Assembly (NCBI GenBank): GCA_964444505.1
Contig: CAYUHF010000007.1
Location: forward strand, 6,720-70,719
Source of the DNA: an uncultured Methanosarcinales archaeon
GTDB taxonomy: Archaea > Nanobdellota > Nanobdellia > Woesearchaeales > JAGVZT01
Length of the DNA: 64,000 bases
Direction: 5' to 3'
Shown: piece after piece, positions 28,388-63,154 of the stretch
How positions within the stretch are numbered: position 1 is the stretch's first letter
How the letters are laid out: the number at the start of each line of letters is the position of its first letter
Translations under genes and position numbers: made by a program
Notes under the pieces: model-generated
What the model saw: the letters and a program-made list of their open reading frames with translations, nothing else
Database searches by the model: none
Told to the model about the DNA's origin: nothing

Positions 28388-31300
28388 TTACTTAAAAACA
28401 TCGATAACGAGTTTAGTTGGCTTTCCTCTGAAAACAACTACTCTTACTTGTCTTACCAGATGTTCAACATCAGATGCTGCTGTGTCAACCACTCTTAGTT
28501 CTTGGGTTTCGTAGGGTTCTCCCTCACAGCAGATAATTTCATGTGTACTATTATATGCTCTTACCCATCCATCATTTTTGTTGTTGCAGATTCTTGTTGT
28601 ATTTGCATCAAAGAATTCACATCCAACCTTGCCGTTACATTCCCTATGACATATTCTGTCATTAATGTAAGTACAGTCTGATTCACATGGTTCAAATTCC
28701 CAGACTATTGTGAAGTTAATTTCTTTCACATCGAAGATTTCTACTTCTTGTTTTGTTACTGTATCTGACCTAAAGCCAATTTTTGATGCCATTAGGTCGT
28801 ATGTAGCATTAGCAATCACGTAGCTTTCATAATAACCTGAACCATTGGTTGTAACATTGTATCTATAAGTTACTTTCCTTACATCATCATAGCCTACAAA
28901 TTCCACAGTGGCATTTGGTACTCCCTGTCCTGTAGAGTTCTTGACCCAGCCAAAGAATACTGCATTTGTGTCGCCAAAGTGCCATTCACCAGGATCACAC
29001 AACTCCTGCCAGCCATCCCCGTCAATATCTGTGTAGATTTGATCGTGCAGATCATGCTGGTTGTATATTCTTATCCTGCACTCACCGTCAACCCACTGAC
29101 ATCTGTCGTCTTCATTACACTCTTTCATATCAATCCTAGGATTATCATTATCTTCATACTGTGAACATTCACTTGCTAACTGCTGTTCATCTAATTCGAG
29201 CTGTGCATAAACAATATCATAGTCTTTGTAGCACTTTCCTTCAAACACACAATCAGTTTCATTATCACAGCAGGCATTATCTGAATAATTTATCCTGTCC
29301 ATAAAAAATCCTTCAATAAGTGATTCTTTGCTTGTGCTTACTACTTCACGGAACCTAAATGTTTCTCCAAGATCATCACCACAGCATTCTGTTGATGTGC
29401 TCAGATCATATTCACCAAATGAGAAAGTCTCTCCATTTTGTGTCCAGTTCAAATCACAGAGTTGACATTGGGCACTACCACTATCACAATCATACCACCT
29501 GTCAAATCCTGGTTCGCACAATGCTATATTGTCATTTCCTGTCGGATTAAAGTTGTTTGCATTTTCGTTATCTTCATAACAGGCACCACTTACATTAACA
29601 CAATCATTCGTGTTATTGCAGCATCCATTTGTATTTGGGTCATCGGGCCACACCATTGAAATATCATTGTTGACATCTGCATTTCTTTTCAAATACTTGT
29701 ATGTCTCGTTAAGATCATCTCCACAACACTCATAGTCATCAAGAACATTTGTGTATTCGCCTACAAACTCACCTGCTCTTGTCCAATGTGCTTCAAGTCC
29801 TACTGTACCCAGTAGTGCATTGCATCCAGTACACTTGGCCATTTCATAATCACAATCAATCCACTGGTCACTTTCTAATGCCTCTCCACAATAAGCTACT
29901 CTGTCATAATCATCTGTATCATTAAGGAATCCTGCATTATTCTCCTGCACACATAGATTGTCTTTGTCCACACAGTTATTGTCTTCCCTGCAGCAAGCTT
30001 CTGTGTTGAGCTCCTTGTTGACAAATGCATTTGCCCCCCCAACATATTTTGTAAAGTTTTTGTAGTACTCAAATGAGTCATCTCCACAGCATCTGGGTGT
30101 GGTCAGGTCATAGTACTCTCCAACATTTGATTCTCCGGCAGTGACGGCATTGTGATCCGTATCAGGAGCATAAGTTCTATCACCATAAAGTTTTGGAGGA
30201 TTCTGTGGACCGCAAATATCTGCGCACCAGAAGTCCATAAAGTCAGCATCGTCACAGTCAAGCCAGGTTCCATTACCGTTTGAATCTAAGCCACTATAGC
30301 AATGTGAGTAAGTGTCATTACCTCCAATGTTCAGATTACCAGTTGTTGCTTCGATTATATCTGATTGACCTTCATTTTGAGTGTTTGACGAGTAGCAATT
30401 GCTTCCGTTCACACAGTCTGTCTGTGAATCACAGCAGGCATCTTCATTGTCATCAAATTCAATTTCGCTTAGTCCACTCACATGTTCTTCAAGTGATTCT
30501 TCATATCTGATAAACTCTGGAACGTCATCTCCGCAACATTCATCTCCTCCCACTTCTCCGCCTATCTGCCAGCCATAATCATTTTCTAAACAGTAATTCT
30601 CATCATCAATATCATACCATCCACCTTCATAGCACATCACTTCATGCTGTCCACCGTCTACCCAAATTGTAGTACTATTTTCAAAGCATTCTCCGTTGAA
30701 GACACAATCTGTTTCTTTATCACAGCATGCATCATCGTTAGTGTCAGTAACAATACTGGAATCTCCCTGATCTTGAACATCTCTGAATACATAATATTCT
30801 GAAAGATCATCACCACAGCATTCTGTTGATGTGCTGAGATCATATTCGCCAAATGAAGATGTCTCCCCATTTTCTGCATAGTCAAATCCACACTGGTTTT
30901 CACAGAAACTCTGTGAGCCGTCACAATCTCTCCATTCTCCTGAAACACACCTTTCTCCTGCTACTGTATCCAAGTTAACATCTAACATTGTGCCTGAGGC
31001 ATAGCAATCACCGTCAAATACACAATCTCCTGAATTATCACAACATGCCTCATCCCCACTATTTGATCCTCCAGTACAGTTCTCATTTGTTCGGTCATTG
31101 CACGTACTAGCTGCATAATCTCTACGGTAGTTGTATTCTTCATTTGCATCATCACCGCAACAACACATCTGACTGGCGTGGTCTCCTGAAGCAATGTTGC
31201 AGAAGTTGGGTCTGGTGTGACCAAAAGCATCATAGTAATATCCATCTTCTGATACTGCTTCTCCACCCACATTCCAGAAGTATGTGGGTTCGCATACACC

Positions 31301-34300
31301 TATTGCGTAATCGAGATTAAGCCAGCTCCCATCGTCTCCCTGACTTTCTGGCAGACAGAAATAATCTTCTCTTCCATCGTTATCATAATCAATATATTCT
31401 CCTGGATCATAGCAAATTCCATTGAAAACACATTTATCAGCGCCTGTACAGCAGGCATTATCTGTGGTATCATTCTGTGCTTTTCCATGGTCTTCTTCCT
31501 GCGGCATATTTGGCCTGAATAATCTGAAATAATTATAGTACTCGTCTTCATCATCACCACAGCAATTAAGTTGTCCTCCCCCAGCTGTCCAGTCTATACC
31601 CATATCACCTGCTGTTGTGTCACAGGTTGAATCACAGTATGACTGGAGTTCATCTGGATCCTGCCATCGTGCATTGCTGCAATAAGACTTGTGGCCTGTA
31701 CCAAAACCATGGCATTGCCCCTGTACAACACAATCACCAGTTGTATTAACACAGTCTGTTGCAGAGCTACAGCAAGCTTCGTCTGCCCCAGAACACCAAG
31801 CATTATTGGAATTGTCTGAATCATAGCATTCCACATAATTTTCAAAGAAATCATCACCACAACAGTTTGCGACGCCTGACTCAAATATCCAGGAAGTACT
31901 ATAACAACTGCTTCCCGGAGGACAAGCATCCATAAACTCATCTATATTATTATCAACCTGATCAGAAGGAACAAGTCCAGTCTCATTATCACAACATGCA
32001 GAGTCAGGAATTCCCCCATCCGTAAAGGTATCTGGATTGCACACTTGGTCTTCACACTGGCAAGTATCATAATCACATTCTTGGTAACCAGAACATGCTG
32101 TGCTTCCATCACATGTTGCAGTGCAATTCTCAAAAGTACATACTGCAGGCCCACAATCTGCTGCCATATCCCCAGTATCTTCTACACATGTACCGTAGTT
32201 TGGATAGTATTTATTTCCATCACATTCTGTATCACACCATCTGCAACCTGCTGTTGCACAATCAGTTGGATTATCAATTTCAGAACAAGTACCAGGGATA
32301 CATGTTATTGACTGGTTTTTATCTGTTCCATTCTGGTGCGAACGATCAATAGTCTCAGCATCATTACCACTATATACACCGCAAACAATATGTACTGTAT
32401 CCTGACCGTCACAATCTATTTGCTCATTATTGAAATATACATCATCATATGTTGCACTCCACGTATCATCTCCATCTTCCCAGCCCAGATCTTCGTCACC
32501 TGAACTATAAACACCATTCTGGTCTCTGTCAATGTAAGCAAAGATACTATCATATCCCTGACCTGATGGTGCTGTGGGGTCAACTGTACAGGTAATATCA
32601 ATATCACTACCTGATACAACTTCTGGTGCCGAGAGTGAGATATCAATTATTCCGACATCACATCCATCATCCCCGTGAATCCCGTCACGGTTATCATAGT
32701 CTGTTTCGCCATCTCCATCATTATCAATACCATCATTGCAGTTACCTGCGATGTGAGATTCCTCTGTCTGGCAGTGCGGATCCTCAAGATCAGTCAATCC
32801 GTCGCAGTCATTATCTATTCCATCATCACATGTTAATTCCCTATCCCATTCAGTCTGGCAGTGACCAGTAAGGTCAACACAATTACTTAAATCTGAACAG
32901 CATCTTTCAGGACCCAAACCAGCTGTCACATAAATCTCATCAACGTCATCTCCACAGCATTCAGTTTCACCTGGCTGATACTCTCCGTGGCCAAAATCTT
33001 CTCCTGATTCAACATAGCAGTCTATACCTGAACAGTCAGGGAGGTTTGTCCCGGAATCACAGTAAGCGCATGTAGTTGACGAGTTATCACAATCATACCA
33101 CTTGCCATCACCAGCTTCAGCTATACAGACTGCATCAGATTCTGAGTCACCAATACCAAGATGATATCCTATATTTAGTGCAGCATAACAATCACCATTA
33201 TAAACACAGTCATCAGTGTTGTCACAGCATGAATTATCTGTAGTAACATCTGCTGGACAAAACATTCCTGCTCCAGATGTGTGGCAATGCCTGTACTCAA
33301 AAAACTCATCTTGGTCATCACCACAGCAAAGTCCCTGTGTTCCTACACCAAACCCAATATCATAGCATGAACTTCCAGGTGGACAGTTTTCTGCAAAGTT
33401 TTCTATTGGCTGCGAAACATCCACGTTTGGATAGTATCCTGTTTCATTATCACAACATTGTTGGCCTGCGTCAGGGTCGCATTCCTCGTCTGTGCACAAG
33501 CAGGTATCAGTATCGCAGGTTGCAGGAAGTGTGCATCCTCCGCTCATACCACACCCGTCCACAATACACTTTCCTTGTGTACAAACTGGGTCTGCACATC
33601 CAGTGCTTGCATCCACACATGTAAGATAGTCTGGATAATATTTTGGTCCATCACACTCCTGATCACACCAAGTACATTGTGGATCTGCATTACAATCTCC
33701 CTCTTCAAGGTCTCCACACCCTTCCAAACAGGTAACTGTCTGCCACACGTCAGGACCGTTCTGGTAGGATCTATTATATTTTTCTCTGGAATCATTATAG
33801 ACACCACATGCAATATCCACACTCGGTGCACTTAGGCAGTTTATTGTTTCATTTCTGAAAACAACTTCATCATCATTCGGCCAGTAATCATCTGAATCCC
33901 ATGTAAAATCTGTATCTCCGGCGTCATATATTCCGTTTCCATTTCTGTCAATATACGCAAAGATACTATCATAACCTGTGCCTGCTGGAGCAGTTGGATT
34001 GACATTACATGTTATGTTAAGTTTTCTCCCAGAGATTACTTCTGTATCTGAAAGTGTGATTGAATCAATTCCGACAGGACAACCATCGTCTCCATGAGGA
34101 GATGGCCCACTAGCTCCCCTGTTTTGAGTGTCATAATCCCATTCTCCATCACAATCTGTATCATTACCGTCATTACACTGGCTCTCTTGCACACCAAACT
34201 CATCTCTGCAGAGGTTTAGGCTGTCAACACAGTTCTTACCATCCTGACAACATCTTGGGTCTCCAACTCCGTCCGAGACATAATTTTCATTATCATCATC

Positions 34301-37300
34301 TCCACAGCACTCCGAGGCAGTTCCAGAGTTGTATTCTCCAAATTGTGATGATTCTCCTCCCTGGACATAATCAAGACCACATAATGCCCCAGTACATGTT
34401 GTAGAATCAGCATCACAGTCCCTCCACTCGCCAGCAATACATATCGCACCAGGAATACTATCTGCATCCGGGTCACCTTTTGTATCTTCAATATAGCAGT
34501 CTCCACCATATACGCAATCATTCTCCCCACTGCAACAAAACTTATCTGAAGGATCTGAACCTCCTACACAGTTATTATCATAAATATCAGAGCATGCACT
34601 TCCTCCCTGATCAACCAAGTAGGTGAAATATTCTGAATCATCATCTCCGCAGCAAATTCCGTTTGATTTAATATTATAACAGGAAGTCCCTGGGGGACAG
34701 TTCTCTGCAAAGTTTTCTATTGGCTGCGAAACATCCACGTTTGGATAGTATCCTGTTTCATTATCACAGCACTGCGGGCTTGAATCAGGGTCGCATTCCT
34801 GATCCTCACACTGGCATGTATCATAGTCACATTCCTGATTGCCTGAACATGCTGTGCTTCCATCACATGTTGCAGTGCAATTCTCAAAAGTACATACTGC
34901 AGGCCCACAATCTGCTGCCATATCTCCGGTATCTTCAACACACATACCGTAGTTTGGATAGTATTTATTTCCATCACATTCTGTATCACACCATCGGCAA
35001 CCTGCTGTTGCACAGTCGACTGAGTTTTCAATTTCAGAACAAGTGCTTGGGATACATGTTATTGAGTGGGATTTATCTGTTCCATTCTGGTATGATCTGT
35101 CCCATGGTTCAGTTGGAGAGGAATATACTCCACAAACAACATGTACTGTATCCTGACCGTCGCAATCTATTTGCTCATTATTGAAATAAACTTCACCATA
35201 GGTCGGATCCCAAGTATCATCTCCATCTTCCCAGCTCAGATCCTCGTCACCTGAACTCCACACACCATTCTGATCCCTGTCAACATACGCAAAAATACTA
35301 TTATATCCTCTATCTTTTGGTGCTGTCGGATCAACTGTACAAGTAATGTCAATATCATTACCTGATACTACTTCTGCTGCCGAGAGTGAGATATCAATTA
35401 TTCCTACATCGCATCCATCATCTCCATGCTCAGGATCATTCATATTATCATAATCAGTCAAATCATCCCCGTCATTATCGATACCATCATTACAGTTACC
35501 TGCGATGTGAGATTCCTCTGTCAAGCAGTTTGGATCTTCATCGTCCGTCAGACCGTCACAGTCATTGTCAATATCATCATCACAATTCACACCCAGCGTT
35601 TCAGTACCAGATCTGCAATTGTTTGTTCCATCAACGCATGTATTCCCGTCTGCACAGCATCTGGGTTCACCAACTCCTGCTGTAATGTAATTCTCACCTG
35701 CATCGTCTTCACAACATTCCTCTTCGGCACCTGTGTCGTATTCACCAAATTGAACAGATTCACCACCATAAACATAGTTATAGTCACAGATTGTCTCGCA
35801 AGCATAATTATTTGAGTCACAATCCGACCACCTTCCAGGATTATCACCTGACAAATCCCAATCGTTACACCATTCACCCAGTACACCATCTCCGTCAATA
35901 TCTGCCATATCAAGATCATTATAACAAGTGCTCTCAAAGACACATTGTTGACTTTGAGGGCAACAAGTACCGTCTGTAACATCATCACTTTTTCCGACAC
36001 ACACAGGATTAGTTATGTCGTTGCATCCATTTGTGGCATATTGGTCATAGTAAACATAATATTCTTGGTTATCATCTCCACAGCAAGCTGCATTTCCTTC
36101 AAGAAATGTCCAATCTTCGCTATAACAACTACCAGACGAAGACGCAGGACATTGGTTGTCAAAAACACTTGGTTCATTATCAGTATTCATATTAGGTAAA
36201 TAACTTCCTTCACTATCACAGCAAGCTTGGCTTAAATCAGGATCACATGGTGTTGCTTCATAGCAGTTGCCACTGGCATCAACTATTTTATCTGACTCAT
36301 TACAACATCTGGCAGGGTTTACACCATCATTGATATAGTATTCGTTAGGGTCGTCACCACAGCATTCTTCTTCAGAATCAAAATTACATCCCAGGTTTTC
36401 ACACTCTGTCTTATCACTTAAAACTGAACAATCACCCATATTTGTACACTCATCTAAAAAACTGTCCCATGCACATCCCGCTTCACTTAAGCCATTACAG
36501 CAGGATAATGATCCTCCACAAGCAGCATAGCAATCAAATGTTCCAGAGCAACGCAATTCATATTCTCCATGGTCTGTTAATTCACCTGAATAAGCTACTC
36601 CTGTATTAACTCCTTCTGAGGCTCCCCACTCTTCACAATAATCATAGTCAGGATCTATCCAATATCTATCCTTACAATAGAAACTTTGAGATATTGAATT
36701 CCCATTGCAATTCATATCCTCTCCATATCTAAAAGTTGTATCACTAGGATAACAGCAACGTGGACCAACAATAGGATATGCACCCCCTATACAATCTGTC
36801 TCTGACTGACAGCAAGCAACACTATTGGTGTTGTGTACCTCAGAAGTATCATCCTCATCAGTGTAAGCCATATTATGTATAGCATAATCAAATAAACCAT
36901 CACAACAAACTGGTGAGCTAGCATTCACTATAATTTCAGTTTTTCCCCATTGGGCCCAGTCGTATCCTGTATCTCCCTCCCAGGAATTTCTTTCAGGATG
37001 TGTAGTAAACCAAAATCGTTGGATTGATCCAGCATAATTACTAAGATCTACAGCAAAAGGTACCCACCCTGTATCATTTACTAAAAGTCCACTCCATACA
37101 ACGCTATCAGATACGCTATTGAGATCCATTTTTGAAGTGGTGCTTATTCTAATAGTGAACCAAACACCCCCGCTATTTCTGGAACCATCGGCTATACCCG
37201 CATAGCCCACAAGATATGCATCATCCGGAACAAATTTATCGTATATATGTACTGTTGTTCCAGTTCCTACTGCCGTATTCCATGAAGGATGTGCCTGTCT

Positions 37301-38692
37301 TGCGACCATTGCCTCACCCCCCACAGTCGGATATCCAATATTCTGCTGCTGACATACATCCCAGAACATTCCCTCATTAGTTTTTGTCCCATTTCTTCCG
37401 GGTTTTGGATCTGAATAGAAATCACTGTATACATCTCCTGATGACTTAAAGAATTCATTAGCATCATCTCCACAACACCCTGTTTCCAAAAGAATGGAGT
37501 CTCCCGCTCTTATTGCAATGTCATCAAAATAAATTGGCATTCCATCCGCATTGTCGCCATCTGTAACTGCTCTTATTCTGACAGTACCACTAGAATCAGA
37601 TGTAAAATTACATTGCACATATTCCCACTGGTTGTATACGCCAGCAGTGGTTCCTGCATGACACTCATATACTGCATCATGAAGATCAAGATAAGCATTT
37701 CCTGGATAGAAAAGATCAGTCTTTTCTCTGTATATATAGCCTGTGAGATTGAACATTGTATTTTTTGGTACATCAACTTCCTGCCAGGTGCTTACCCCTG
37801 GACCTGTTCCTGTCCAACTGCTCTTCAAAGAGTAACTTCCTGAATGGGCCCTCTCATCAGACCTAGTATGATCAGCATGCTCATTCCAATCTTCAGCATC
37901 GTTACTTGATCCTCTTTCAAATCCTGAGTTTTTAACCACTCCTCTGTATTCTCCATGTGGTGTCCTTTCCCCACTCTGGACTCCCGCGGGACTACCACAA
38001 TATGCATTTGGATAGTCCCAATCCGAATTTGTACAGGCACCACTATCCCAGGAATCACAACTTGGATTACACCAGTTCTTGAACCAATTGTTTGAGTCAC
38101 AGTCAAGCCAGGTCGCTGGCTGGGAATCTGGGGCGGATGGACTTTGATCATAGAGACAATATGCTAGATTATCATTACGACCTGGATGAAGCCCCACATG
38201 AATAAAATCACCGAATTGTGAAAAACTGCTGCCTGATGGATGAGGATCTCCTTCCTTATCAAGGCACTCCGCACTTAAACTAACTCTGGTATCAGCGTGG
38301 TTACAAAAACCTATTGTCTGATATCCCCACTTGTCAATGTGAGCACATCTGTTAACAAAAAAGCCAGAGAATATAGTGTCATTGTCACAGTCCTCCGGAT
38401 AATCTGGATTCGAGGGATTACAACCATCCTCACAGCTTCTCGCATCATAAAAGCCAGGCTCTCCAATTACCTGTGTACATGTTTGCCCGTCTGCCTCATC
38501 AAAAGTACCACATGCATTACATGTGCATGAATCTTCTCCTCGACTGCATTCAAAATAATTTTCTCCCCATGAAGGGGGTTGGTAACAGCAAACAACAGTT
38601 TCCCCAGCAACTTGTAAGACTAAAAATAGACATAATACACTAATTATCCAAAAATGCTTCCTCATATCCAGCCTCTTTTTTATTTTTTTCAA
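28388..38692 (-). CDS. giant secreted cysteine-rich surface protein (3434 aa)
   Basis: The start shows a Sec signal peptide. A CBM4/9-like jelly-roll domain (GFERGS..W..AHSGSYSLK) follows. There are more than 10 CCGDD...CC...CY modules and three ~460-aa tandem repeats. A C-terminal carboxypeptidase-regulatory-like domain is present. The protein has no TM anchor other than the signal peptide. Confidence 0.85.
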   Translation of the reverse strand: MKKIKKRLDMRKHFWIISVLCLFLVLQVAGETVVCCYQPPSWGENYFECSRGEDSCTCNACGTFDEADGQTCTQVIGEPGFYDARSCEDGCNPSNPDYPEDCDNDTIFSGFFVNRCAHIDKWGYQTIGFCNHADTRVSLSAECLDKEGDPHPSGSSFSQFGDFIHVGLHPGRNDNLAYCLYDQSPSAPDSQPATWLDCDSNNWFKNWCNPSCDSWDSGACTNSDWDYPNAYCGSPAGVQSGERTPHGEYRGVVKNSGFERGSSNDAEDWNEHADHTRSDERAHSGSYSLKSSWTGTGPGVSTWQEVDVPKNTMFNLTGYIYREKTDLFYPGNAYLDLHDAVYECHAGTTAGVYNQWEYVQCNFTSDSSGTVRIRAVTDGDNADGMPIYFDDIAIRAGDSILLETGCCGDDANEFFKSSGDVYSDFYSDPKPGRNGTKTNEGMFWDVCQQQNIGYPTVGGEAMVARQAHPSWNTAVGTGTTVHIYDKFVPDDAYLVGYAGIADGSRNSGGVWFTIRISTTSKMDLNSVSDSVVWSGLLVNDTGWVPFAVDLSNYAGSIQRFWFTTHPERNSWEGDTGYDWAQWGKTEIIVNASSPVCCDGLFDYAIHNMAYTDEDDTSEVHNTNSVACCQSETDCIGGAYPIVGPRCCYPSDTTFRYGEDMNCNGNSISQSFYCKDRYWIDPDYDYCEEWGASEGVNTGVAYSGELTDHGEYELRCSGTFDCYAACGGSLSCCNGLSEAGCAWDSFLDECTNMGDCSVLSDKTECENLGCNFDSEEECCGDDPNEYYINDGVNPARCCNESDKIVDASGNCYEATPCDPDLSQACCDSEGSYLPNMNTDNEPSVFDNQCPASSSGSCYSEDWTFLEGNAACCGDDNQEYYVYYDQYATNGCNDITNPVCVGKSDDVTDGTCCPQSQQCVFESTCYNDLDMADIDGDGVLGEWCNDWDLSGDNPGRWSDCDSNNYACETICDYNYVYGGESVQFGEYDTGAEEECCEDDAGENYITAGVGEPRCCADGNTCVDGTNNCRSGTETLGVNCDDDIDNDCDGLTDDEDPNCLTEESHIAGNCNDGIDNDGDDLTDYDNMNDPEHGDDGCDVGIIDISLSAAEVVSGNDIDITCTVDPTAPKDRGYNSIFAYVDRDQNGVWSSGDEDLSWEDGDDTWDPTYGEVYFNNEQIDCDGQDTVHVVCGVYSSPTEPWDRSYQNGTDKSHSITCIPSTCSEIENSVDCATAGCRWCDTECDGNKYYPNYGMCVEDTGDMAADCGPAVCTFENCTATCDGSTACSGNQECDYDTCQCEDQECDPDSSPQCCDNETGYYPNVDVSQPIENFAENCPPGTSCYNIKSNGICCGDDDSEYFTYLVDQGGSACSDIYDNNCVGGSDPSDKFCCSGENDCVYGGDCYIEDTKGDPDADSIPGAICIAGEWRDCDADSTTCTGALCGLDYVQGGESSQFGEYNSGTASECCGDDDNENYVSDGVGDPRCCQDGKNCVDSLNLCRDEFGVQESQCNDGNDTDCDGEWDYDTQNRGASGPSPHGDDGCPVGIDSITLSDTEVISGRKLNITCNVNPTAPAGTGYDSIFAYIDRNGNGIYDAGDTDFTWDSDDYWPNDDEVVFRNETINCLSAPSVDIACGVYNDSREKYNRSYQNGPDVWQTVTCLEGCGDLEEGDCNADPQCTWCDQECDGPKYYPDYLTCVDASTGCADPVCTQGKCIVDGCGMSGGCTLPATCDTDTCLCTDEECDPDAGQQCCDNETGYYPNVDVSQPIENFAENCPPGSSCYDIGFGVGTQGLCCGDDQDEFFEYRHCHTSGAGMFCPADVTTDNSCCDNTDDCVYNGDCYAALNIGYHLGIGDSESDAVCIAEAGDGKWYDCDNSSTTCAYCDSGTNLPDCSGIDCYVESGEDFGHGEYQPGETECCGDDVDEIYVTAGLGPERCCSDLSNCVDLTGHCQTEWDRELTCDDGIDNDCDGLTDLEDPHCQTEESHIAGNCNDGIDNDGDGETDYDNRDGIHGDDGCDVGIIDISLSAPEVVSGSDIDITCTVDPTAPSGQGYDSIFAYIDRDQNGVYSSGDEDLGWEDGDDTWSATYDDVYFNNEQIDCDGQDTVHIVCGVYSGNDAETIDRSHQNGTDKNQSITCIPGTCSEIDNPTDCATAGCRWCDTECDGNKYYPNYGTCVEDTGDMAADCGPAVCTFENCTATCDGSTACSGYQECDYDTCQCEDQVCNPDTFTDGGIPDSACCDNETGLVPSDQVDNNIDEFMDACPPGSSCYSTSWIFESGVANCCGDDFFENYVECYDSDNSNNAWCSGADEACCSSATDCVNTTGDCVVQGQCHGFGTGHKSYCSNARWQDPDELQSYCDSTCDTTAGDMGIDWTAGGGQLNCCGDDEDEYYNYFRLFRPNMPQEEDHGKAQNDTTDNACCTGADKCVFNGICYDPGEYIDYDNDGREDYFCLPESQGDDGSWLNLDYAIGVCEPTYFWNVGGEAVSEDGYYYDAFGHTRPNFCNIASGDHASQMCCCGDDANEEYNYRRDYAASTCNDRTNENCTGGSNSGDEACCDNSGDCVFDGDCYASGTMLDVNLDTVAGERCVSGEWRDCDGSQSFCENQCGFDYAENGETSSFGEYDLSTSTECCGDDLSEYYVFRDVQDQGDSSIVTDTNDDACCDKETDCVFNGECFENSTTIWVDGGQHEVMCYEGGWYDIDDENYCLENDYGWQIGGEVGGDECCGDDVPEFIRYEESLEEHVSGLSEIEFDDNEDACCDSQTDCVNGSNCYSSNTQNEGQSDIIEATTGNLNIGGNDTYSHCYSGLDSNGNGTWLDCDDADFMDFWCADICGPQNPPKLYGDRTYAPDTDHNAVTAGESNVGEYYDLTTPRCCGDDSFEYYKNFTKYVGGANAFVNKELNTEACCREDNNCVDKDNLCVQENNAGFLNDTDDYDRVAYCGEALESDQWIDCDYEMAKCTGCNALLGTVGLEAHWTRAGEFVGEYTNVLDDYECCGDDLNETYKYLKRNADVNNDISMVWPDDPNTNGCCNNTNDCVNVSGACYEDNENANNFNPTGNDNIALCEPGFDRWYDCDSGSAQCQLCDLNWTQNGETFSFGEYDLSTSTECCGDDLGETFRFREVVSTSKESLIEGFFMDRINYSDNACCDNETDCVFEGKCYKDYDIVYAQLELDEQQLASECSQYEDNDNPRIDMKECNEDDRCQWVDGECRIRIYNQHDLHDQIYTDIDGDGWQELCDPGEWHFGDTNAVFFGWVKNSTGQGVPNATVEFVGYDDVRKVTYRYNVTTNGSGYYESYVIANATYDLMASKIGFRSDTVTKQEVEIFDVKEINFTIVWEFEPCESDCTYINDRICHRECNGKVGCEFFDANTTRICNNKNDGWVRAYNSTHEIICCEGEPYETQELRVVDTAASDVEHLVRQVRVVVFRGKPTKLVIDVFK
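31300..35700 (-). repeat. three ~1.38-kb tandem intragenic repeats; copies 1 and 3 are near-identical
   Basis: The DNA string acagttacctgcgatgtgagattcctctgt (encoding TEESHIAGNC) recurs at ~32740 and ~35490. Antisense ORFs 31942..32154 and 34717..35031 are near-identical. Confidence 0.7.
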
Positions 38693-39466: not shown

Positions 39467-40809
39467 TCAAGATTGGAAAAGATCCGTATCTAAAAAAAGA
39501 AATACACAAAGTTCTCTTTGATGACCGTCCCAAGGTTCAGTACTTTAACCAGTCTGATGTTTATCTTGGCCATCCGAGTTCAAATATTGCTGTTGCATTT
39601 ATTTACACCTGGAAAGATGACCACCCTCCAGAACATGTCAAAAAGTTCATGGAAAAACTCTCAAACTACGCATATATTTCTGGTTTCTGGCGAACCACAA
39701 ATGGTGCCAGGTATGTGTTTTCTAATATTCTTGCAAATCCTAATGTGAACAAGCTTTTTGTTTTTGTGTTTGACTACAAGGACAATGGTCATGCTCTTGT
39801 GAATGCCTTGAAAAACTTCTGGAAAAACGGGATAAGAAATGACGGCACAATAAAGGGCTCAATTGCACAAAACCCCAAGTTTGAGCAGATACCTCATGAT
39901 GCACTCCAGAGGATAAGAAAACAGTGTGATCTGGTTGTGGTTGATAAGATAGACAAAAAAGAGTTTGGCAAGATTGAATATATGGTGAAAAACTCAATTA
40001 ATGAGCCAAAAAATCCTGTCAATCTGGAAGAGTGTGAGCTTTCGCCTGTGTTTATTTCAAATGTTGTTGATAAAAAAATTCTTTATGATGATGGAGCCAG
40101 GTTTAAGGAACCATACCACATTGATCTGTCACAGAATGCCTCAACTGTGGAATACAGGGAGAGAAATCTTTCAAATGTTCTTGGCCAGTCTATCCAGGCA
40201 GAAACCCTTGATGAAGCACTGAAATCTGCTGTTGCCTTTATTTTCAAGAATGGTTCTGTTCATGTTGATGACAGGGGGATTATTACAATTGAGTGCAGAA
40301 GCTTTACAGTTACTATTACTGATGCTCTATCAAAAGTGCCTGATGGTTTTTCAAATGGCTATATTAAAAATTATGTTGAAGAGTTTATGGAAGGGCCCAA
40401 AAACCCTATGGAGTACAATTATCACGAGAGAATCTTCAAGCGATGGGGAAATCAGGTAGAAAGAGTTGTTGAGATGCTTGAGGATCATTCTTCAACACGG
40501 AGGATGGTTATTTCTCTTTGGGACCAGAAAAGTGATCTTGAGAATCCGTGTCCCCCTTGCCTTGATATTATCTGGGTGTGCATTCGAAATGACAAGCTGG
40601 AGATGCATGTTTTGTTCAGGAGTCATCATATAGCTACTGTTACAGAGGATGGAAAACTGATGAAAGGCGAGGGTGCTTTTGTTCCAAATATTATTGCACT
40701 TGTTAATCTCCAGAATTACATTGCCAAGAAACTGGAAGTGGAGAGAGGTGCTTTTGTTTTGTCTGAGTTTTCGGGTCATTTATACACAAGCAAGGTGAAA
40801 AATGGGTAA
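39463..40809 (+). CDS. thymidylate synthase-fold enzyme (ThyA/dUMP hydroxymethylase family) with ~210-aa N-terminal domain of unknown function
   Basis: The C-terminal half aligns to the ThyA core: RRMVISLWDQ..NPCPPCLDIIWVC..LFRSHHIA..GAFVPNIIALVNL..GHLY. This corresponds to SRR..W, PPCH, YQRSxD, PFNIASYALL and GDAHIY. Start and stop overlap the neighbouring genes. Confidence 0.6.
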   Translation: MIKIGKDPYLKKEIHKVLFDDRPKVQYFNQSDVYLGHPSSNIAVAFIYTWKDDHPPEHVKKFMEKLSNYAYISGFWRTTNGARYVFSNILANPNVNKLFVFVFDYKDNGHALVNALKNFWKNGIRNDGTIKGSIAQNPKFEQIPHDALQRIRKQCDLVVVDKIDKKEFGKIEYMVKNSINEPKNPVNLEECELSPVFISNVVDKKILYDDGARFKEPYHIDLSQNASTVEYRERNLSNVLGQSIQAETLDEALKSAVAFIFKNGSVHVDDRGIITIECRSFTVTITDALSKVPDGFSNGYIKNYVEEFMEGPKNPMEYNYHERIFKRWGNQVERVVEMLEDHSSTRRMVISLWDQKSDLENPCPPCLDIIWVCIRNDKLEMHVLFRSHHIATVTEDGKLMKGEGAFVPNIIALVNLQNYIAKKLEVERGAFVLSEFSGHLYTSKVKNG

Positions 40810-41461
40810 ACTAATTGTTCTAGAGGGATTGGATGGTTCTGGTAAGCTGACGCAGCTGAAGATGCTGAAAGAGAGACTTATTAAAGATGGTTATCCTGTT
40901 GACACTTTTGACTTTCCCCAGTATGATTCTTTTTTTGGTGCTCTTGTGGGTAAATACCTGCGGGGTGAATTTGGTTCTATGGTTGAACTTCCAGTTGAGA
41001 TTCCGACTCTGTTGTATGCTCTTGACAGGTACTATGTGAGGGATGATATTGAAGAGTCTCTTGAGGAAAATATTGTTCTTCTTAATAGATACACTCCTTC
41101 AAATACCTGTTTTCAGGGTGCAAAGCTTAAGGGTAAGGACCGAGACAAGTTTATCAAGTGGGTTGGTGCTGTCGAGGCAAGGCTTCCACGACCTGACCTT
41201 GTGCTGTTTCTTGATGTTCCAAGATATATTGCAAGAAATCTAATTGGAAACAAGGATCTTAGAAAGTACCTGAATGGAAAAAAGCAGGATATTCATGAGA
41301 AAAATGATCCTTACCAGGAAGAGGTTGAGAGTCTTTACAGAAGACTTGTGAGGGAGAGGAAAAACTGGATCGGTATCAAATGTGTTGAGTATGACCTACT
41401 GCTAAAGGTGGAGGAAATTCATGATAAAATATGGAAGGTAGTAAAACGGGAGTTAGGGTAG
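40802..41461 (+). CDS. tmk: thymidylate kinase
   Basis: IVLEGLDGSGKLTQ P-loop, ALDRYY (DRY motif) and an LNRYTPS lid. Confidence 0.8.
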   Translation: MGKLIVLEGLDGSGKLTQLKMLKERLIKDGYPVDTFDFPQYDSFFGALVGKYLRGEFGSMVELPVEIPTLLYALDRYYVRDDIEESLEENIVLLNRYTPSNTCFQGAKLKGKDRDKFIKWVGAVEARLPRPDLVLFLDVPRYIARNLIGNKDLRKYLNGKKQDIHEKNDPYQEEVESLYRRLVRERKNWIGIKCVEYDLLLKVEEIHDKIWKVVKRELG

Positions 41462-42111
41462 AATTTGTTGGGCCAAAGTGCAGCGGAAAGAGTGTTCTTC
41501 TGAAGGCACTAAAATGCTGGTCATTGCAGCAAGGGCTAGGAATAGTTGACATGGAGAGCTATTGGAAGAGATATCAAAGGTATCCTGAGTTTGATGATTC
41601 ATTTGCTAGTTTATATGATGTTGTTTTGACTGTGGAACCAACATGGGTTGGTGCTGGCAGATCTATAAGGGAGAGATTTGGCGGTGAGTACCAGGAGGTT
41701 TTGCTTCCTGGCAAGAGTGCTCAGGACAGAGGAGATCATTATGGTAGTCTTATAGAACCTGCTCTTGAAAATGGTTTTTATGTTTTCCAGGAAGGCGGAC
41801 TTGCAGAGGATATAGTAAGGTGGGGTGTAGATGTTCTTGATTTTCAGGGAAACCAGATATCAATGCAAAGACATCCTGATTATGTTTTCTTGACAAGGTG
41901 CAGTCCGATTACTGCTGCGCTAAGGATAGACAAGGAGACATGTTCAAACAGAGGCACTTACAGTATTGATGAGATTGTTAAAGAGCATCAGGCATACAGG
42001 ATGGTTGAAGAAGCTGGTATTTATGACAATCTTATTGTTTTTGACACTGAAGATTCAGTTCTCAATACCAAAATGAAGATTATTGAAATGTGGGAAAGCT
42101 TGGTTGAGTGA
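41431..42111 (+). CDS. Tmk-like P-loop nucleotide kinase (divergent paralog A)
   Basis: GPKCSGKS P-loop plus VEPTWVGAGRSIRE, which matches KEPTQNYVGRAISE in 42695..43372. Confidence 0.5.
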   Translation: MEGSKTGVRVEFVGPKCSGKSVLLKALKCWSLQQGLGIVDMESYWKRYQRYPEFDDSFASLYDVVLTVEPTWVGAGRSIRERFGGEYQEVLLPGKSAQDRGDHYGSLIEPALENGFYVFQEGGLAEDIVRWGVDVLDFQGNQISMQRHPDYVFLTRCSPITAALRIDKETCSNRGTYSIDEIVKEHQAYRMVEEAGIYDNLIVFDTEDSVLNTKMKIIEMWESLVE

Positions 42112-42232: not shown

Positions 42233-42600
42233 CCTACCTCGGCACAGACGGCCACTTGCGTGTGTCCTATTCCATTAACCTTGTGTATTCGGTTAATTCC
42301 ATCTGGCCAAGGCTGGCCATAGAGGGATTCCTAAATATTATTGGAGCTGTCTTTTATGAATAATTCTTAGGGATAGAAATTAAATACCATGGCTTAATAT
42401 GGTGATGTCAACTATTTCTTTCGATCTAATTTTATCCTTTTTTTGGTCGCTTGCAGTATTTGAGCAAGCTATGCACGTTTGCTTGTGCACTGCACAACCT
42501 CGGCAAGGCATTATGAGTTTTCTGCAGAAATAAGAAGTTCCTGGCCAGATGGAGTTAAACGGAATAGGCCATACGCAAATGGCCGTCTGTGCCAGGTAGG
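42233..42600. repeat. MITE-like element bounded by ~20-bp inverted repeats
   Basis: cctacctcggcacagacgg (42233..42251) matches the reverse complement of ccgtctgtgccaggtagg (42583..42600). The interior contains a TGGCCA-AGGC-TGGCCA hairpin and a ggtcgcttgca motif. Confidence 0.35.
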
Positions 42601-42694
42601 AATTTCCAATAAACATTTTGCTAACAACAATACAACCTCACATAACTTGACACAACCTAAAACTATATAAACTCGAAATACCAATTAGTTCTCT

Positions 42695-46047: not shown

Positions 46048-46593
46048 ATGTATTTTGTCACTGGAAATCCCGGAAAGTTTAGAGAAGCCAAAGAGATTAT
46101 TCCAGAGCTCAAGCAGATTGAGCTTGATTTGACAGAGATTCAGGAGTTTGATATGCAGAAGATTGTCAAGGCAAAACTAATTGAAGCTTCCAAAAAAGTT
46201 GAGGGTGAAGTTGTGGTTGAGGATACTGGACTTTTTCTTGATTGTCTGAATGGTCTTCCAGGTCCTATGATCAAGTGGTTTTTGAAAAGAGTCGGCAACA
46301 AGGGTTTGTTTGAGATTTGTGATAGTCTGGGTCAATATGGTGCTAAGGCTAAGACAGTTGTAGGATTGTATGATGATGATTTTCATTTTTATGAAGGTTG
46401 TGTCAGGGGAAAGATTGTTTCTCCTAGAGGAGAGGGTTTTGGGTGGGATCCTGTTTTCCAGCCTGAAGGTTATTCTAAAACTTTTGGTGAGATTGGTTTT
46501 AAGAATGATATTAGTATGAGAAGGAAGGCTTTTGAAAAGTTATGGACAGACCGGGACTTTCAAGACGACAAGTCTCAAAAAGGCCATGCATAG
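46048..46593 (+). CDS. non-canonical purine NTP pyrophosphatase (Ham1/ITPase)
   Basis: Ham1 family; the N-terminus is MYFVTGNPGKFRE. Confidence 0.85.
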   Translation: MYFVTGNPGKFREAKEIIPELKQIELDLTEIQEFDMQKIVKAKLIEASKKVEGEVVVEDTGLFLDCLNGLPGPMIKWFLKRVGNKGLFEICDSLGQYGAKAKTVVGLYDDDFHFYEGCVRGKIVSPRGEGFGWDPVFQPEGYSKTFGEIGFKNDISMRRKAFEKLWTDRDFQDDKSQKGHA

Positions 46594-46782
46594 CCTGAAA
46601 CTCAGCCGTCTTTTGAACCCGGGGCCTCCCGCCAGCCAAGCGGGCATTCTGCCAGGCTGAACTATCTGCCCATGAAGTAAATGTATTTTGTTTCTCTTTT
46701 AAATTTTTGCTTCCGAGTCCAAATGGAATCACAACATGGCCAGACAGAGCTCTTGAAGAGTGGAGTAGGGCATCTTGGATGA

Positions 46783-46807
46783 CCGTCTGTGCCAAGGGGT
46801 GGGATTC
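46783..46807. repeat. copy of conserved intergenic element CCGTCTGTGCCAAGG(N)GGTGGGATTC
   Basis: The same ~25-28-nt element occurs at 42583..42605, 63128..63154 and, inverted, at 42233..42253. Confidence 0.4.
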
Positions 46808-46957
46808 AAAAATTTCTTTTTCTATACCAGTCTTAATACTTTAGAGGTCGCTTGCACTGTACAAAAAGTGAACTGCGACAGCTCAAGTTTCCCCAAGCAA
46901 ATTTTCCAAATCGAAATCTTTATAAATATTGAATCAGTAAATTATCTAAAAAAGAGT

Positions 46958-62788: not shown

Positions 62789-63127
62789 GTTCTTAAATAT
62801 TTTGGAAAGTGTTTTACCATGTCAATAATAACTCTTTGTATTATATATTTTGGAATTTGATATTACTTATAAAGTCGAGTCATTTATAGAAAATTACCAG
62901 GAAAAAGGGTGACAAAAAGAGGATGGAAAACGGAATCAGCTACAAAACAATACTTGGAAACAAGAGATTATCAGATTTCGTAAAAGAGGAGGAAGAAGAA
63001 TAAAACCTCTTTCTCCTCAAACTAATCTCTGTCAAATTTTTGGTTTCTTGGACTTACACACCTGACAATATTTTCTTGCATGTTTCGTGGCCTATTTGAT
63101 TTTGAGCAAATATAGGGTTTTTGACTG

Positions 63128-63154
63128 GCGGTCTGTGCCAAGGTGGTGGAATTC
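63128..63154. repeat. copy of conserved intergenic element GCGGTCTGTGCCAAGGTGGTGGAATTC
   Basis: Shared with 46783..46807 and 42583..42605. Confidence 0.4.

What the first reader, a model, noticed from the sequence alone, without database searches (positions are those of the whole stretch)
42233..42605. Conserved ~25-28-nt intergenic element in four copies; two copies form the inverted termini of a 370-bp MITE-like element between the Tmk-like paralogs
- The element CCGTCTGTGCCA(A)GG..GG(T/A)GG(G/A)ATT occurs at:
  - 42583..42605
  - 46783..46807
  - 63128..63154
  - 42233..42253, as a reverse complement
- The 42233 and 42583 copies are inverted relative to each other (cctacctcggcacagacgg vs rc cctacctggcacagacgg). 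They bracket 370 bp of non-coding DNA that contains a TGGCCA-AGGC-TGGCCA hairpin.
- A second short motif, GCCAGGCTG, accompanies the element at all three loci, at 46651, 63173 and 42306.
- A ggtcgcttgca 11-mer recurs at 42446 and 46847.
- All forward copies lie 80-150 bp upstream of + strand genes (Tmk-like, porG, signal peptidase), ahead of their TATA-like boxes.
- Possible identities are a dispersed MITE family, a small structured RNA family, or a shared upstream regulatory site.
- The insertion between two paralogous kinase genes also suggests a role in, or a trace of, their duplication.
Basis: seen in the sequence. Interest (0 to 1): 0.6.

Follow-up and report, generated by a model that had tools for sequence, protein, structure and literature searches.

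The report
Small dispersed intergenic repeat family
A short DNA block with an invariant core occurs four times between genes of an uncultured Woesearchaeota-like archaeon, twice as an inverted pair; it is most likely a small lineage-specific repeat recognised by a protein, not an RNA gene or tRNA fragment, so it is ordinary in kind and its function is unresolved.

Summary
The core CSGTCTGTGCCA occurs four times against 0.18 expected, at the stated coordinates, and two copies are inverted around about 230 bp of AT-rich DNA.

- **Shape of the repeat.** The block shared by all four copies is about 30 nt: TG(G/A)C(C/G)GTCTGTGCC(A)AGG, a G-rich run, then GGAATTC. Three copies (c1, c1', c2) also share a longer 65-80-nt unit that starts with TGGCC and can fold as an imperfect palindrome.
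- **Not an artefact.** All three loci are identical in a second assembly.
- **Restricted to this lineage.** No copy appears in about 75 kb from the nearest relatives or in the collection scans.
- **Tmk spacer.** In relatives the orthologous spacer is 70-109 nt; here it is 583 nt and follows an extra orphan gene.
- **Negative tests.** Rfam gives no meaningful match at any of the three loci. Intron-removal scans find no tRNA in the units. Covariation is weak, and no unit has a consistent promoter.
- **Secondary motifs.** They are at or near chance frequency. GCCAGGCTG at 46651 is the D-loop of an unannotated tRNA-Ala(GGC) gene with a 55-nt T-loop intron.

Best reading (0.4): a REP/MITE-like dispersed repeat with a protein-recognised core, the 370-bp structure being a head-to-head doublet. 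No target-site duplication or transposase was found. A regulatory site or a small RNA family is not excluded.

The parts
42542..42620 (+). Unit c1. It runs TGGCCAGATGG...GGAATAGG-GGCCAT/ATGGCC hairpin-core CCGTCTGTGCCA (42583-42594)-AGGTAGGAATTTCC tail. It is the right arm of the inverted pair, which ends at 42605.
42233..42309 (-). Unit c1', an inverted copy of c1 and the left arm of the pair. It is 77% identical to c1 over the unit alignment and 85% in the best 41 nt. It has an extra 17-nt stretch that forms the TTAACC/GGTTAA hairpin. The core is CCGTCTGTGCCG at 42240-42251. It lacks the GGAATTC tail.
42310..42541 (.). AT-rich spacer between the two inverted units. It has no similarity to the c2 or c3 loci apart from one 11-mer. 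It contains a T7 run at 42438-42444 and a 45-aa Cys-rich ORF with no homologs.
46737..46810 (+). Unit c2. It runs TGGCCAGACAG...CTCT/AGAG hairpin...GGAGTAGG-GGGCATC/GATGACC hairpin-core CCGTCTGTGCCA (46783-46794)-AGGGGTGGGATTC. It lies 65 nt upstream of the 5' end of the minus-strand tRNA-Ala gene, and its core lies 175 nt upstream of the porG ATG.
   Evidence: identical in Logan contig L001
63088..63158 (+). Unit c3, the most diverged copy. It runs TGGCCTATTTG...TATAGG...core CGGTCTGTGCCA (63129-63140)-AGGTGGTGGAATTC. The stem partner of the core is lost, and the unit does not fold better than shuffles.
   Evidence: identical in Logan contig L200
46543..46671 (-). Not part of the repeat. This is a tRNA-Ala(GGC) gene with a 55-nt intron in the T-loop (intron 46557-46611).

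Best explanation
This is a lineage-specific family of small dispersed repeats that act at the DNA level.

**Anatomy.** Each copy carries an invariant, sequence-specific recognition block: TG(G/A)C(C/G)GTCTGTGCC(A)AGG plus a G-rich/GGAATTC tail, about 30 bp. In the better-preserved copies this block closes a 65-80-bp imperfect palindrome (TGGCCAGA... / ...TCTG(T)GCCA with one bulged T) around a variable interior.

**Proposed origin (inferred, not shown).** The copies were spread, or are kept, because a protein recognises the core. That protein could be a transposase or recombinase encoded elsewhere in the genome, as for REP/REPIN or MITE-like non-autonomous elements.

**The 42233-42605 locus.** The 370-bp structure is a head-to-head doublet of two such units, not a single element with termini. 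It sits in DNA that this lineage gained between two thymidylate-kinase-like genes.

**What is shown.** The repeat exists. The core is constrained beyond the rest of the unit. The unit is palindromic. The repeat is restricted to this lineage. The locus carries extra DNA compared with relatives.

**What is inferred.** Mobility, and the identity of the recognising protein.
For: - **Non-chance copies.** Four copies against 0.18 and 0.00 expected.
- **Constraint on the core.** The 9-mer GTCTGTGCC is invariant, while the rest of c3 is only 36-41% identical to the other units. The core is kept even where its stem partner is lost. This points to recognition of the sequence, not of the hairpin.
- **Palindromic units.** Closing stem, bulged T and internal hairpins are present in c1, c1' and c2.
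- **Doublet.** The head-to-head pair gives a 65-78-bp inverted repeat with folding z about -8.
- **Intergenic only.** All copies lie between genes.
- **Probably untranscribed.** The three plus-strand units c1, c2 and c3 each lie after a T5-T7 run (42438-42444, 46704-46708, 63037-63041) and before the next TATA box.
- **Absent from relatives.** No copy in about 75 kb of the nearest relatives, including the orthologous porG and tmk upstream regions.
- **Absent from collections.** No genuine copy among the rows returned by the collection scans. Every hit was in DNA of 46% GC or more, or lacked the other features of the unit.
- **Extra DNA at the tmk locus.** The orthologous spacer is 70-109 nt in relatives and 583 nt here.
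- **Precedent in the clade.** A related MAG has its own unrelated intergenic repeat families with the same closing-stem-plus-interior layout, so such families do arise in this group.
- **Real sequence.** The loci are identical in a second assembly.
Against: - No target-site duplication flanks the doublet or any single unit.
- No transposase, integrase or Y1/HUH enzyme is among the window's ORFs.
- Only four copies are visible and they are diverged: 55-77% identity over the unit alignment, 85% in the best 41 nt of the c1/c1' arms. Active MITE families are usually more uniform.
- The rest of the genome could not be searched, so copy number is unknown.
- The nearest relatives are distant (72-78% PorA identity), and the tmk locus also differs by a whole gene, so the 'empty site' is not a clean one.
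- c1 and c3 have the same core-to-ATG spacing (112 and 113 nt) and share CATAACTTG 58 nt after the core. A regulatory site would explain this at least as well.
Confidence: 0.4

Rival explanations
1. The units are a cis-regulatory DNA site. The roughly 30-bp block (dyad TGGC-N7-GCCA plus a G-rich tail) would be the operator or upstream activating site of a lineage-specific transcription factor. That factor would act on the promoters of the Tmk-like gene, the por operon, the signal peptidase gene, and possibly tRNA-Ala.
For: - The three plus-strand copies c1, c2 and c3 lie upstream of the TATA box of a + strand gene.
- c1 and c3 have the same core-to-ATG spacing, 112 and 113 nt. Both also carry an identical CATAACTTG 58 nt after the core.
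- The core is conserved as sequence even where the hairpin is lost.
- The units appear to lie in untranscribed DNA, behind T-runs.
- The size and partial dyad of the block fit a dimeric DNA-binding protein.
Against: - c1' points away from any gene.
- c2 has a different spacing (175 nt).
- The three downstream genes have no evident functional link.
- Similarity of the promoter-proximal regions is not above the background of other upstream pairs.
- The site is missing upstream of porG and the Tmk-like gene in relatives.
- The 40-50 nt of shared sequence upstream of the core in c1, c1' and c2 is not needed for a simple operator.
Confidence: 0.2
2. The units are genes or modules of a family of small structured RNAs of about 60-85 nt. 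These would form a three-way junction: a closing stem with a bulged U, a variable hairpin, a conserved GGAAUAGG junction, a second hairpin and a G-rich tail. The conserved GUCUGUG would pair in trans or be bound by a protein.
For: - c1, c1' and c2 fold into the same architecture.
- The first internal hairpin has three unrelated sequences: TTAACC/GGTTAA, CTCT/AGAG and TATTTG/CAAATA.
- The second hairpin has one compensatory change, U-A to C-G.
- c1 and c1' fold better than shuffles, z = -2.4.
- The related MAG's RepA shows clear compensatory changes in a similar layout.
Against: - Rfam gives nothing at gathering score, and only chance-level hits at E up to 10.
- The covariation score is reached by 49 of 500 shuffles, and 4 of 8 closing-stem pairs never vary.
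- c2 and c3 do not fold better than shuffles (z = -0.4 and +0.9), and c3 has lost both the closing stem and the second hairpin.
- TATA-like boxes upstream of the units sit at inconsistent distances.
- T5-T7 runs precede the three plus-strand units c1, c2 and c3.
- There is no conservation in relatives.
Confidence: 0.17
3. The 42233-42605 region is a classical MITE, with its two termini at the stated coordinates. c2 and c3 would be solo termini left by other, decayed copies.
For: - Long inverted termini and a size of 373 bp.
- The location is intergenic.
- The locus has extra DNA compared with relatives.
- The conserved core lies 8-20 bp from the outer tip, where transposase-binding sites lie in many IS termini. 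This last point rests on general knowledge, not on a test here.
Against: - No target-site duplication.
- There is no second full-length copy.
- c1, c2 and c3 share the GGAATTC tail outside the inverted repeat, while c1' lacks it. The repeat unit is therefore not bounded by the inverted-repeat tip.
- No related IS or transposase is present in the window.
Confidence: 0.1
4. The units are tRNA-related: split or permuted tRNA halves, multi-intron tRNA genes, or tRNA-derived pseudo-elements or att sites.
For: - The closing stem GGCCAGA/TCTG(T)GCCA resembles the acceptor stem of the neighbouring tRNA-Ala, GGGCAGA/TCTGTCCA.
- c3 shares CGGTCTGT with that tRNA's 3' exon and TGGCCT.TTTGA with its intron.
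- This lineage does have non-canonical tRNA introns.
- No standard tRNA is detected in 140 kb of window plus relatives.
Against: - Removing every possible single intron of 10-130 nt at every position recovers tRNA-Ala but no tRNA at the c1 or c3 loci or in the c2 unit.
- Unit-to-tRNA alignment scores are not above shuffles, apart from one 12-mer with p about 0.03.
- The conserved block is not a universal tRNA feature, and there are no T-loop or D-loop motifs.
- Multi-intron or trans-spliced arrangements were not tested exhaustively.
Confidence: 0.04

Closest known systems
REP / REPIN (BIME) elements mobilised by RAYT transposases in bacteria
   Same: - Short intergenic imperfect palindromes with a bulged base.
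- Copies occur singly and as head-to-head inverted doublets that can form long hairpins.
- Families are lineage-specific.
- The conserved sequence is recognised by a protein (PMC3116915, PMC3733652).
   Different: - REPs are 20-40 bp with 5-13-bp stems and a GTAG or CGTC head (PMC3733652). These units are 65-80 bp with a branched, variable interior.
- CGTC lies inside the core here and is GGTC in c3.
- The doublet spacer is about 230 bp, not tens of bp.
- No RAYT gene is seen.
- My literature searches found no description of REP/RAYT systems in archaea.
Prokaryotic MITEs (for example Neisseria Correia elements, archaeal Sulfolobus/haloarchaeal MITEs)
   Same: - Non-coding and intergenic.
- Inverted termini, total size 373 bp, hairpin-forming.
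- Present in one lineage and absent at the orthologous site of relatives.
   Different: - No target-site duplication.
- Only one composite copy.
- The arms also occur alone.
- The arms diverge from the other copies to 55-69% identity.
- No parent IS is known.
Integron attC sites (also reported in archaea)
   Same: Imperfect palindromes of variable length with conserved ends, a variable centre and extrahelical bases.
   Different: - No RYYYAAC / GTTRRRY core sites.
- The units are not arranged as an array of cassettes: several genes on both strands and a tRNA gene lie between copies.
- No IntI-type integrase is present in the window.
Archaeal origin recognition boxes (ORB) flanking an AT-rich unwinding element
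   Same: A dyad plus G-string block in inverted orientation on either side of AT-rich DNA.
   Different: - No orc1/cdc6 gene in the 64 kb.
- The sequence is unlike the TCCA-N-TGGA ORB dyad (comparison from memory, not tested).
- Further copies lie 4 and 21 kb away.
- The gene-orientation switch is at 38.7 kb, not at 42.3 kb.

Membership tests
MITE | Terminal inverted repeats | tested here: met
   Arms 42233-42309 and 42542-42605 pair over 65-78 nt. The best ungapped 41 nt are 85% complementary.
MITE | Target-site duplication directly flanking the termini | tested here: not met
   The flanks are ...TTTAGCCAG | and | AATTTCCAAT, with no direct repeat. The alignment of the arms ends at GGTAGG.
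MITE | Several full-length, similar copies in the genome | tested here: inconclusive
   Only one composite is present in 64 kb plus 2.7 kb of flanks. c2 and c3 are single units. The rest of the MAG could not be reached.
MITE | Termini related to those of an autonomous IS, or a transposase in the genome | not testable with these tools
   No transposase is present among the window ORFs. The source MAG is not in the searchable collections.
MITE | Presence/absence polymorphism at orthologous sites | tested here: inconclusive
   Relatives have a 70-109-nt spacer against 583 nt here. They are distant, however, and also lack the adjacent orphan gene.
REP/REPIN-RAYT | 20-40-bp palindrome with a GTAG or CGTC head (PMC3733652) | tested here: not met
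   The units are 65-80 nt with a branched interior. CGTC is internal and is not kept in c3.
REP/REPIN-RAYT | Head-to-head doublets able to form a long hairpin | tested here: met
   c1'/c1 form such a doublet, but the spacer is about 230 bp.
REP/REPIN-RAYT | Single-copy RAYT (Y1 transposase) gene flanked by the repeat | not testable with these tools
   None is present in the window. The rest of the genome is unavailable.
Structured small RNA family | Match to a curated RNA family | tested here: not met
   Rfam gives 0 hits at gathering score and only chance-level hits at E up to 10 at the three loci.
Structured small RNA family | Base-pair covariation above controls | tested here: inconclusive
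   Only four sequences are available. Two pairs have changes on both sides. 49 of 500 shuffles reach the observed score. c3 breaks both helices.
Structured small RNA family | Own promoter and terminator at consistent positions | tested here: not met
   By reading the sequence, TATA-like boxes end 8-32 nt before TGGCC at inconsistent distances. The one at c2 is the tRNA-Ala promoter on the other strand.
Structured small RNA family | Conservation in related genomes | tested here: not met
   An nhmmer profile finds no copy in L066-L070 or L195-L198.
Split / intron-containing tRNA | A cloverleaf is recovered after removal of an intervening sequence | tested here: not met
   The deletion scan with ARAGORN recovers only tRNA-Ala(GGC) at 46543-46671. 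Multi-intron and trans-spliced cases were not tested.
Integron attC | R''/R' core sites, cassette array, adjacent intI | tested here: not met
   The core sites are not in the sequence. The copies are separated by several genes on both strands. No integrase is present.
oriC / ORB | Adjacent orc1/cdc6 and ORB consensus | tested here: not met
   No Cdc6/AAA match among the ORFs of the window. The ORB consensus was compared from memory only.

The most novel reading that the evidence does not exclude
The invariant core (a 4-bp dyad around the 7-nt CGTCTGT) within a variable palindrome could be the recognition module of an undescribed archaeal single-strand or hairpin-specific mobilisation system, a DPANN counterpart of REP/RAYT. 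Alternatively it could mark a new family of small three-way-junction RNAs. Other Woesearchaeota may carry sister families, such as RepA and RepB in GCA_964354685.1.
Probability: 0.15. Interest if true: 0.55.

Novelty: new member of a known kind. Interest (0 to 1): 0.3.

Why it matters
Small dispersed repeats are hardly described in DPANN archaea, whose reduced genomes are usually thought to carry little repetitive or mobile DNA.

- If the family turns out to be abundant genome-wide, it would show that such genomes still host non-autonomous repeats. It would also offer a handle for finding the enzyme that moves them, or the factor that binds them.
- As it stands, four diverged copies in one MAG make a modest, lineage-restricted observation.
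- The practical by-product is that standard tRNA and RNA finders miss genes here. The tRNA-Ala gene with a T-loop intron is an example. 'Empty' intergenic DNA in these genomes should therefore be read with care.

Tried and rejected
- **tRNA or split tRNA.** ARAGORN and Rfam gave nothing. Exhaustive single-intron removal recovers only tRNA-Ala. Unit-to-tRNA similarity is not significant.
- **Known RNA families and ribozymes.** I checked hammerhead, C/D box and H/ACA by eye and found no conserved boxes. Rfam gives no meaningful hit.
- **Small protein in the centre.** The 45-aa CxxC...CxxC ORF has no homolog among 1.8 billion representatives and no Pfam match. No peptide is conserved across the units.
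- **Collection scans.**
  - Genome contigs gave 64 chance hits in GC-rich bacteria.
  - Metagenome contigs gave 0 hits, then 120 chance hits in contigs of 46% GC or more.
  - Viral contigs gave 4 and 5 chance hits.
  - The phage and plasmid collections gave nothing.
- **Reaching the source MAG.** Its contig is not indexed. Only short Logan contigs of the same run were found.
- **Extending the repeat into the promoters.** c1-c3 similarity downstream of the unit is not above background.
- **Secondary motifs.** GCCAGGCTG, GGTCGCTTGCA and CATAACTTG are at or near chance frequency.
- **Replication origin, attC and DGR.** No Orc1/Cdc6, integrase or reverse transcriptase is present in the window.
- **Role in the kinase duplication.** The paralogs are only 28% identical. 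The upstream one is an orphan.

Full report
**Context.** The window is AT-rich (34-43% GC) and encodes archaeal housekeeping genes: thermosome, class I aminoacyl-tRNA synthetases, CCA-adding enzyme, Rpo7-like, POR, ThyA/Tmk and Ham1. The best named relatives of its PorA and Tmk-like proteins are Candidatus Woesearchaeota / Nanoarchaeota MAGs. The source is an NCBI contig of 74.8 kb. The nearest other genomes are only 72-78% (PorA) or 63% or less (Tmk-like) identical.

- The 12-mer CSGTCTGTGCCA (at most 1 mismatch) occurs four times, at 42240 (-), 42583, 46783 and 63129 (+). Shuffles expect 0.18.
- A longer pattern spanning 55-72 nt hits the same four places against 0.00 expected.
- A 15-mer search allowing 3 substitutions and an nhmmer profile of the four copies find no further copy in the window.
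- The 42233 and 42605 copies are inverted and pair over 65-78 nt. The best 41 nt are 85% complementary, and folding z-scores are -8.1 and -8.7.
- All three loci are identical in Logan contigs of run SRR15425350, and the arms differ from each other. The inverted repeat is therefore not an assembly artefact.

**What exactly is repeated?**
- Alignment shows an invariant block, TG(G/A)C(C/G)GTCTGTGCC(A/G)(A)GG. A G-rich run follows, then GGAATT(T)C in c1, c2 and c3.
- Upstream of this block, c1, c1' and c2 share a further 40-55 nt. This stretch starts sharply at TGGCC(A)GA and contains GGA(A/G)TAGG.
- In those three copies TGGCCAGA pairs with TCTG(T)GCCA, leaving one bulged T. The stem encloses one or two hairpins whose sequences differ between copies.
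- c3 keeps TGGCC, TAGG, the core and the tail, but is otherwise only 36-41% identical to the others. It has lost the stem partner of the core and does not fold better than shuffles (z = +0.9).
- The core is thus conserved as a sequence, not as half of a helix.
- On the four sequences the covariation score is reached by 49 of 500 shuffles.

**Secondary motifs.**
- GCCAGGCTG is at chance frequency. At 42306 it carries an inserted base.
- At 46651 it is the D-loop of a tRNA gene. The minus strand 46671..46543 reads as tRNA-Ala(GGC) interrupted by a 55-nt intron after position 59 of the T-loop, with a bulge-helix-bulge-like pairing. After removal of the intron ARAGORN calls a perfect tRNA-Ala with G3:U70.
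- ARAGORN and Rfam both miss the unspliced gene. It is the only tRNA recoverable in the window's intergenic DNA by single-intron removal.
- The 11-mer GGTCGCTTGCA is of borderline significance and is not collinear with the units.
- CATAACTTG lies 58 nt after the core in both c1 and c3. Overall, however, the promoter-proximal regions are no more alike than random pairs of upstream regions.

**Surroundings and comparison with relatives.**
- In two relatives the order is ThyA, Tmk, then a 70- or 109-nt spacer, then the Tmk-like gene (L197 and L195).
- The window has, between the same two genes, an extra 226-aa Tmk-like paralog followed by the 583-nt spacer that holds the inverted pair. The paralog is 28% identical to its neighbour and has no other homolog.
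- The extra DNA is therefore specific to this lineage. The paralogs are far too diverged for the roughly 77-85%-identical arms to be a trace of their duplication.
- Upstream of porG, relatives have different neighbours and no unit.
- Among the rows the scans of the genome, metagenome and viral collections returned, there were only chance matches in GC-rich or unrelated DNA.
- The window holds no transposase, integrase, reverse transcriptase or Orc1/Cdc6.
- A related MAG (GCA_964354685.1) carries its own, unrelated, dispersed intergenic repeats. One has a covarying closing stem. Lineage-specific repeat families therefore seem to recur in this group.

**RNA or DNA?**
- Rfam gives nothing meaningful at any of the three loci.
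- Reading the sequence, TATA-like boxes upstream of the units are at inconsistent distances. The strong one near c2 belongs to tRNA-Ala on the other strand.
- Each of the three plus-strand units lies behind a T5-T7 run (42438-42444, 46704-46708, 63037-63041) and ahead of the TATA box of the next gene. This is most likely untranscribed DNA, which is an inference.
- The 45-aa Cys-rich ORF in the centre of the inverted pair has no homolog.
- Together with the sequence-level conservation of the core in c3, this favours a DNA-level element recognised by a protein.

**Most likely explanation (about 0.4).** This is a lineage-specific dispersed repeat of the REP/MITE kind. Each copy is an imperfect palindrome carrying a protein-recognition core, and copies occur singly and once as a head-to-head doublet. 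Mobility is inferred, not shown. There is no target-site duplication and no partner enzyme, and the four copies are diverged.

**Rivals.**
- A transcription-factor site upstream of three promoters (about 0.2). The equal spacing in c1 and c3 favours it. c1' and the absence of the site in relatives argue against it.
- A small three-way-junction RNA family (about 0.17).
- A classical MITE with solo termini (about 0.1).
- tRNA-derived pieces (about 0.04; tested and not supported for single introns).
- Chance is excluded.

**Comparison with known families.**
- The element works most like REP/REPIN or MITE-type repeats. It fails the defining size and head-motif criteria of REPs (PMC3733652). It also fails the target-site-duplication criterion of MITEs.
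- It lacks the core sites and the array context of attC.
- It lacks the Orc1 context of ORB elements.
- I therefore file it only under the broad kind 'small dispersed intergenic repeat'.

**Verdict.** Interest is modest (0.3). The decisive step is a search of the complete genome for copy number, contexts and a flanked enzyme gene, plus small-RNA data.

Noticed in passing
window 46543-46671 (-): An unannotated tRNA-Ala(GGC) gene with a 55-nt intron in the T-loop, after position 59 (intron 46557-46611). ARAGORN and Rfam both miss it. It overlaps the 3' end of the Ham1 ORF (46048-46593). It is the only tRNA recoverable by single-intron removal from the window's intergenic DNA.
   Followed up: yes
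window 41431-42111 (+): An orphan Tmk-like paralog. It is 28% identical to the neighbouring 42695-43372 gene and has no other homolog in the 5.8-billion-protein search. It is absent from the orthologous locus of relatives L195 and L197.
   Followed up: partly
L195:10746-10863 and L069:4111-4228; L069:3562-3614 and L195:12954-13006 (both loci from MAG GCA_964354685.1): The related MAG has two dispersed intergenic repeat families of its own. RepA is 118 nt and 84% identical between copies, with compensatory changes in a long closing stem. RepB is 53 nt and 98% identical, with an 8-bp hairpin. Neither has an Rfam or tRNA match.
   Followed up: partly
window 28388-38665 (-): A single 3425-aa ORF full of internal repeats. 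It contains 13 copies of a 35-nt ...TCATCACCACAGCA... motif and several 140-300-nt duplications, suggesting a giant Cys-rich repeat surface protein.
   Followed up: no
window 42383-42517 (-): A 45-aa ORF with CxxC-x7-CxxC in the centre of the inverted pair, preceded by a TATA-like box. It has no homolog among 1.8 billion representatives and no Pfam match.
   Followed up: yes
window, L066, L069, L195, L197 (whole): ARAGORN finds no tRNA and Rfam finds no family at gathering score in 64 kb of window plus 75 kb from three related MAGs. This suggests that RNA genes in this clade are often disrupted or too divergent for standard tools.
   Followed up: partly
window 62815-62869 (-) and L197:10856-10910: A 55-nt AT-rich, promoter-like block (...AAGTAATAT.AAATT..AAAATATATAAT...GTTATTATT.A.ATGGTA) is 84% identical between the window and a distant relative, in unrelated intergenic contexts.
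   Followed up: no
window 62975-63010: A strong 13-bp hairpin (GAGGAGGAAGAAG...CTCTTTCTCCTC) followed on the minus strand by TTTT. It lies in the 454-nt spacer upstream of unit c3 and could be a terminator or the 3' end of a small RNA.
   Followed up: no
window 39649-40809 (+): An ORF combining an MtrA-like N-terminal domain with a thymidylate-synthase C-terminal part. The same fusion is present in relative L197 (7923-9263).
   Followed up: no
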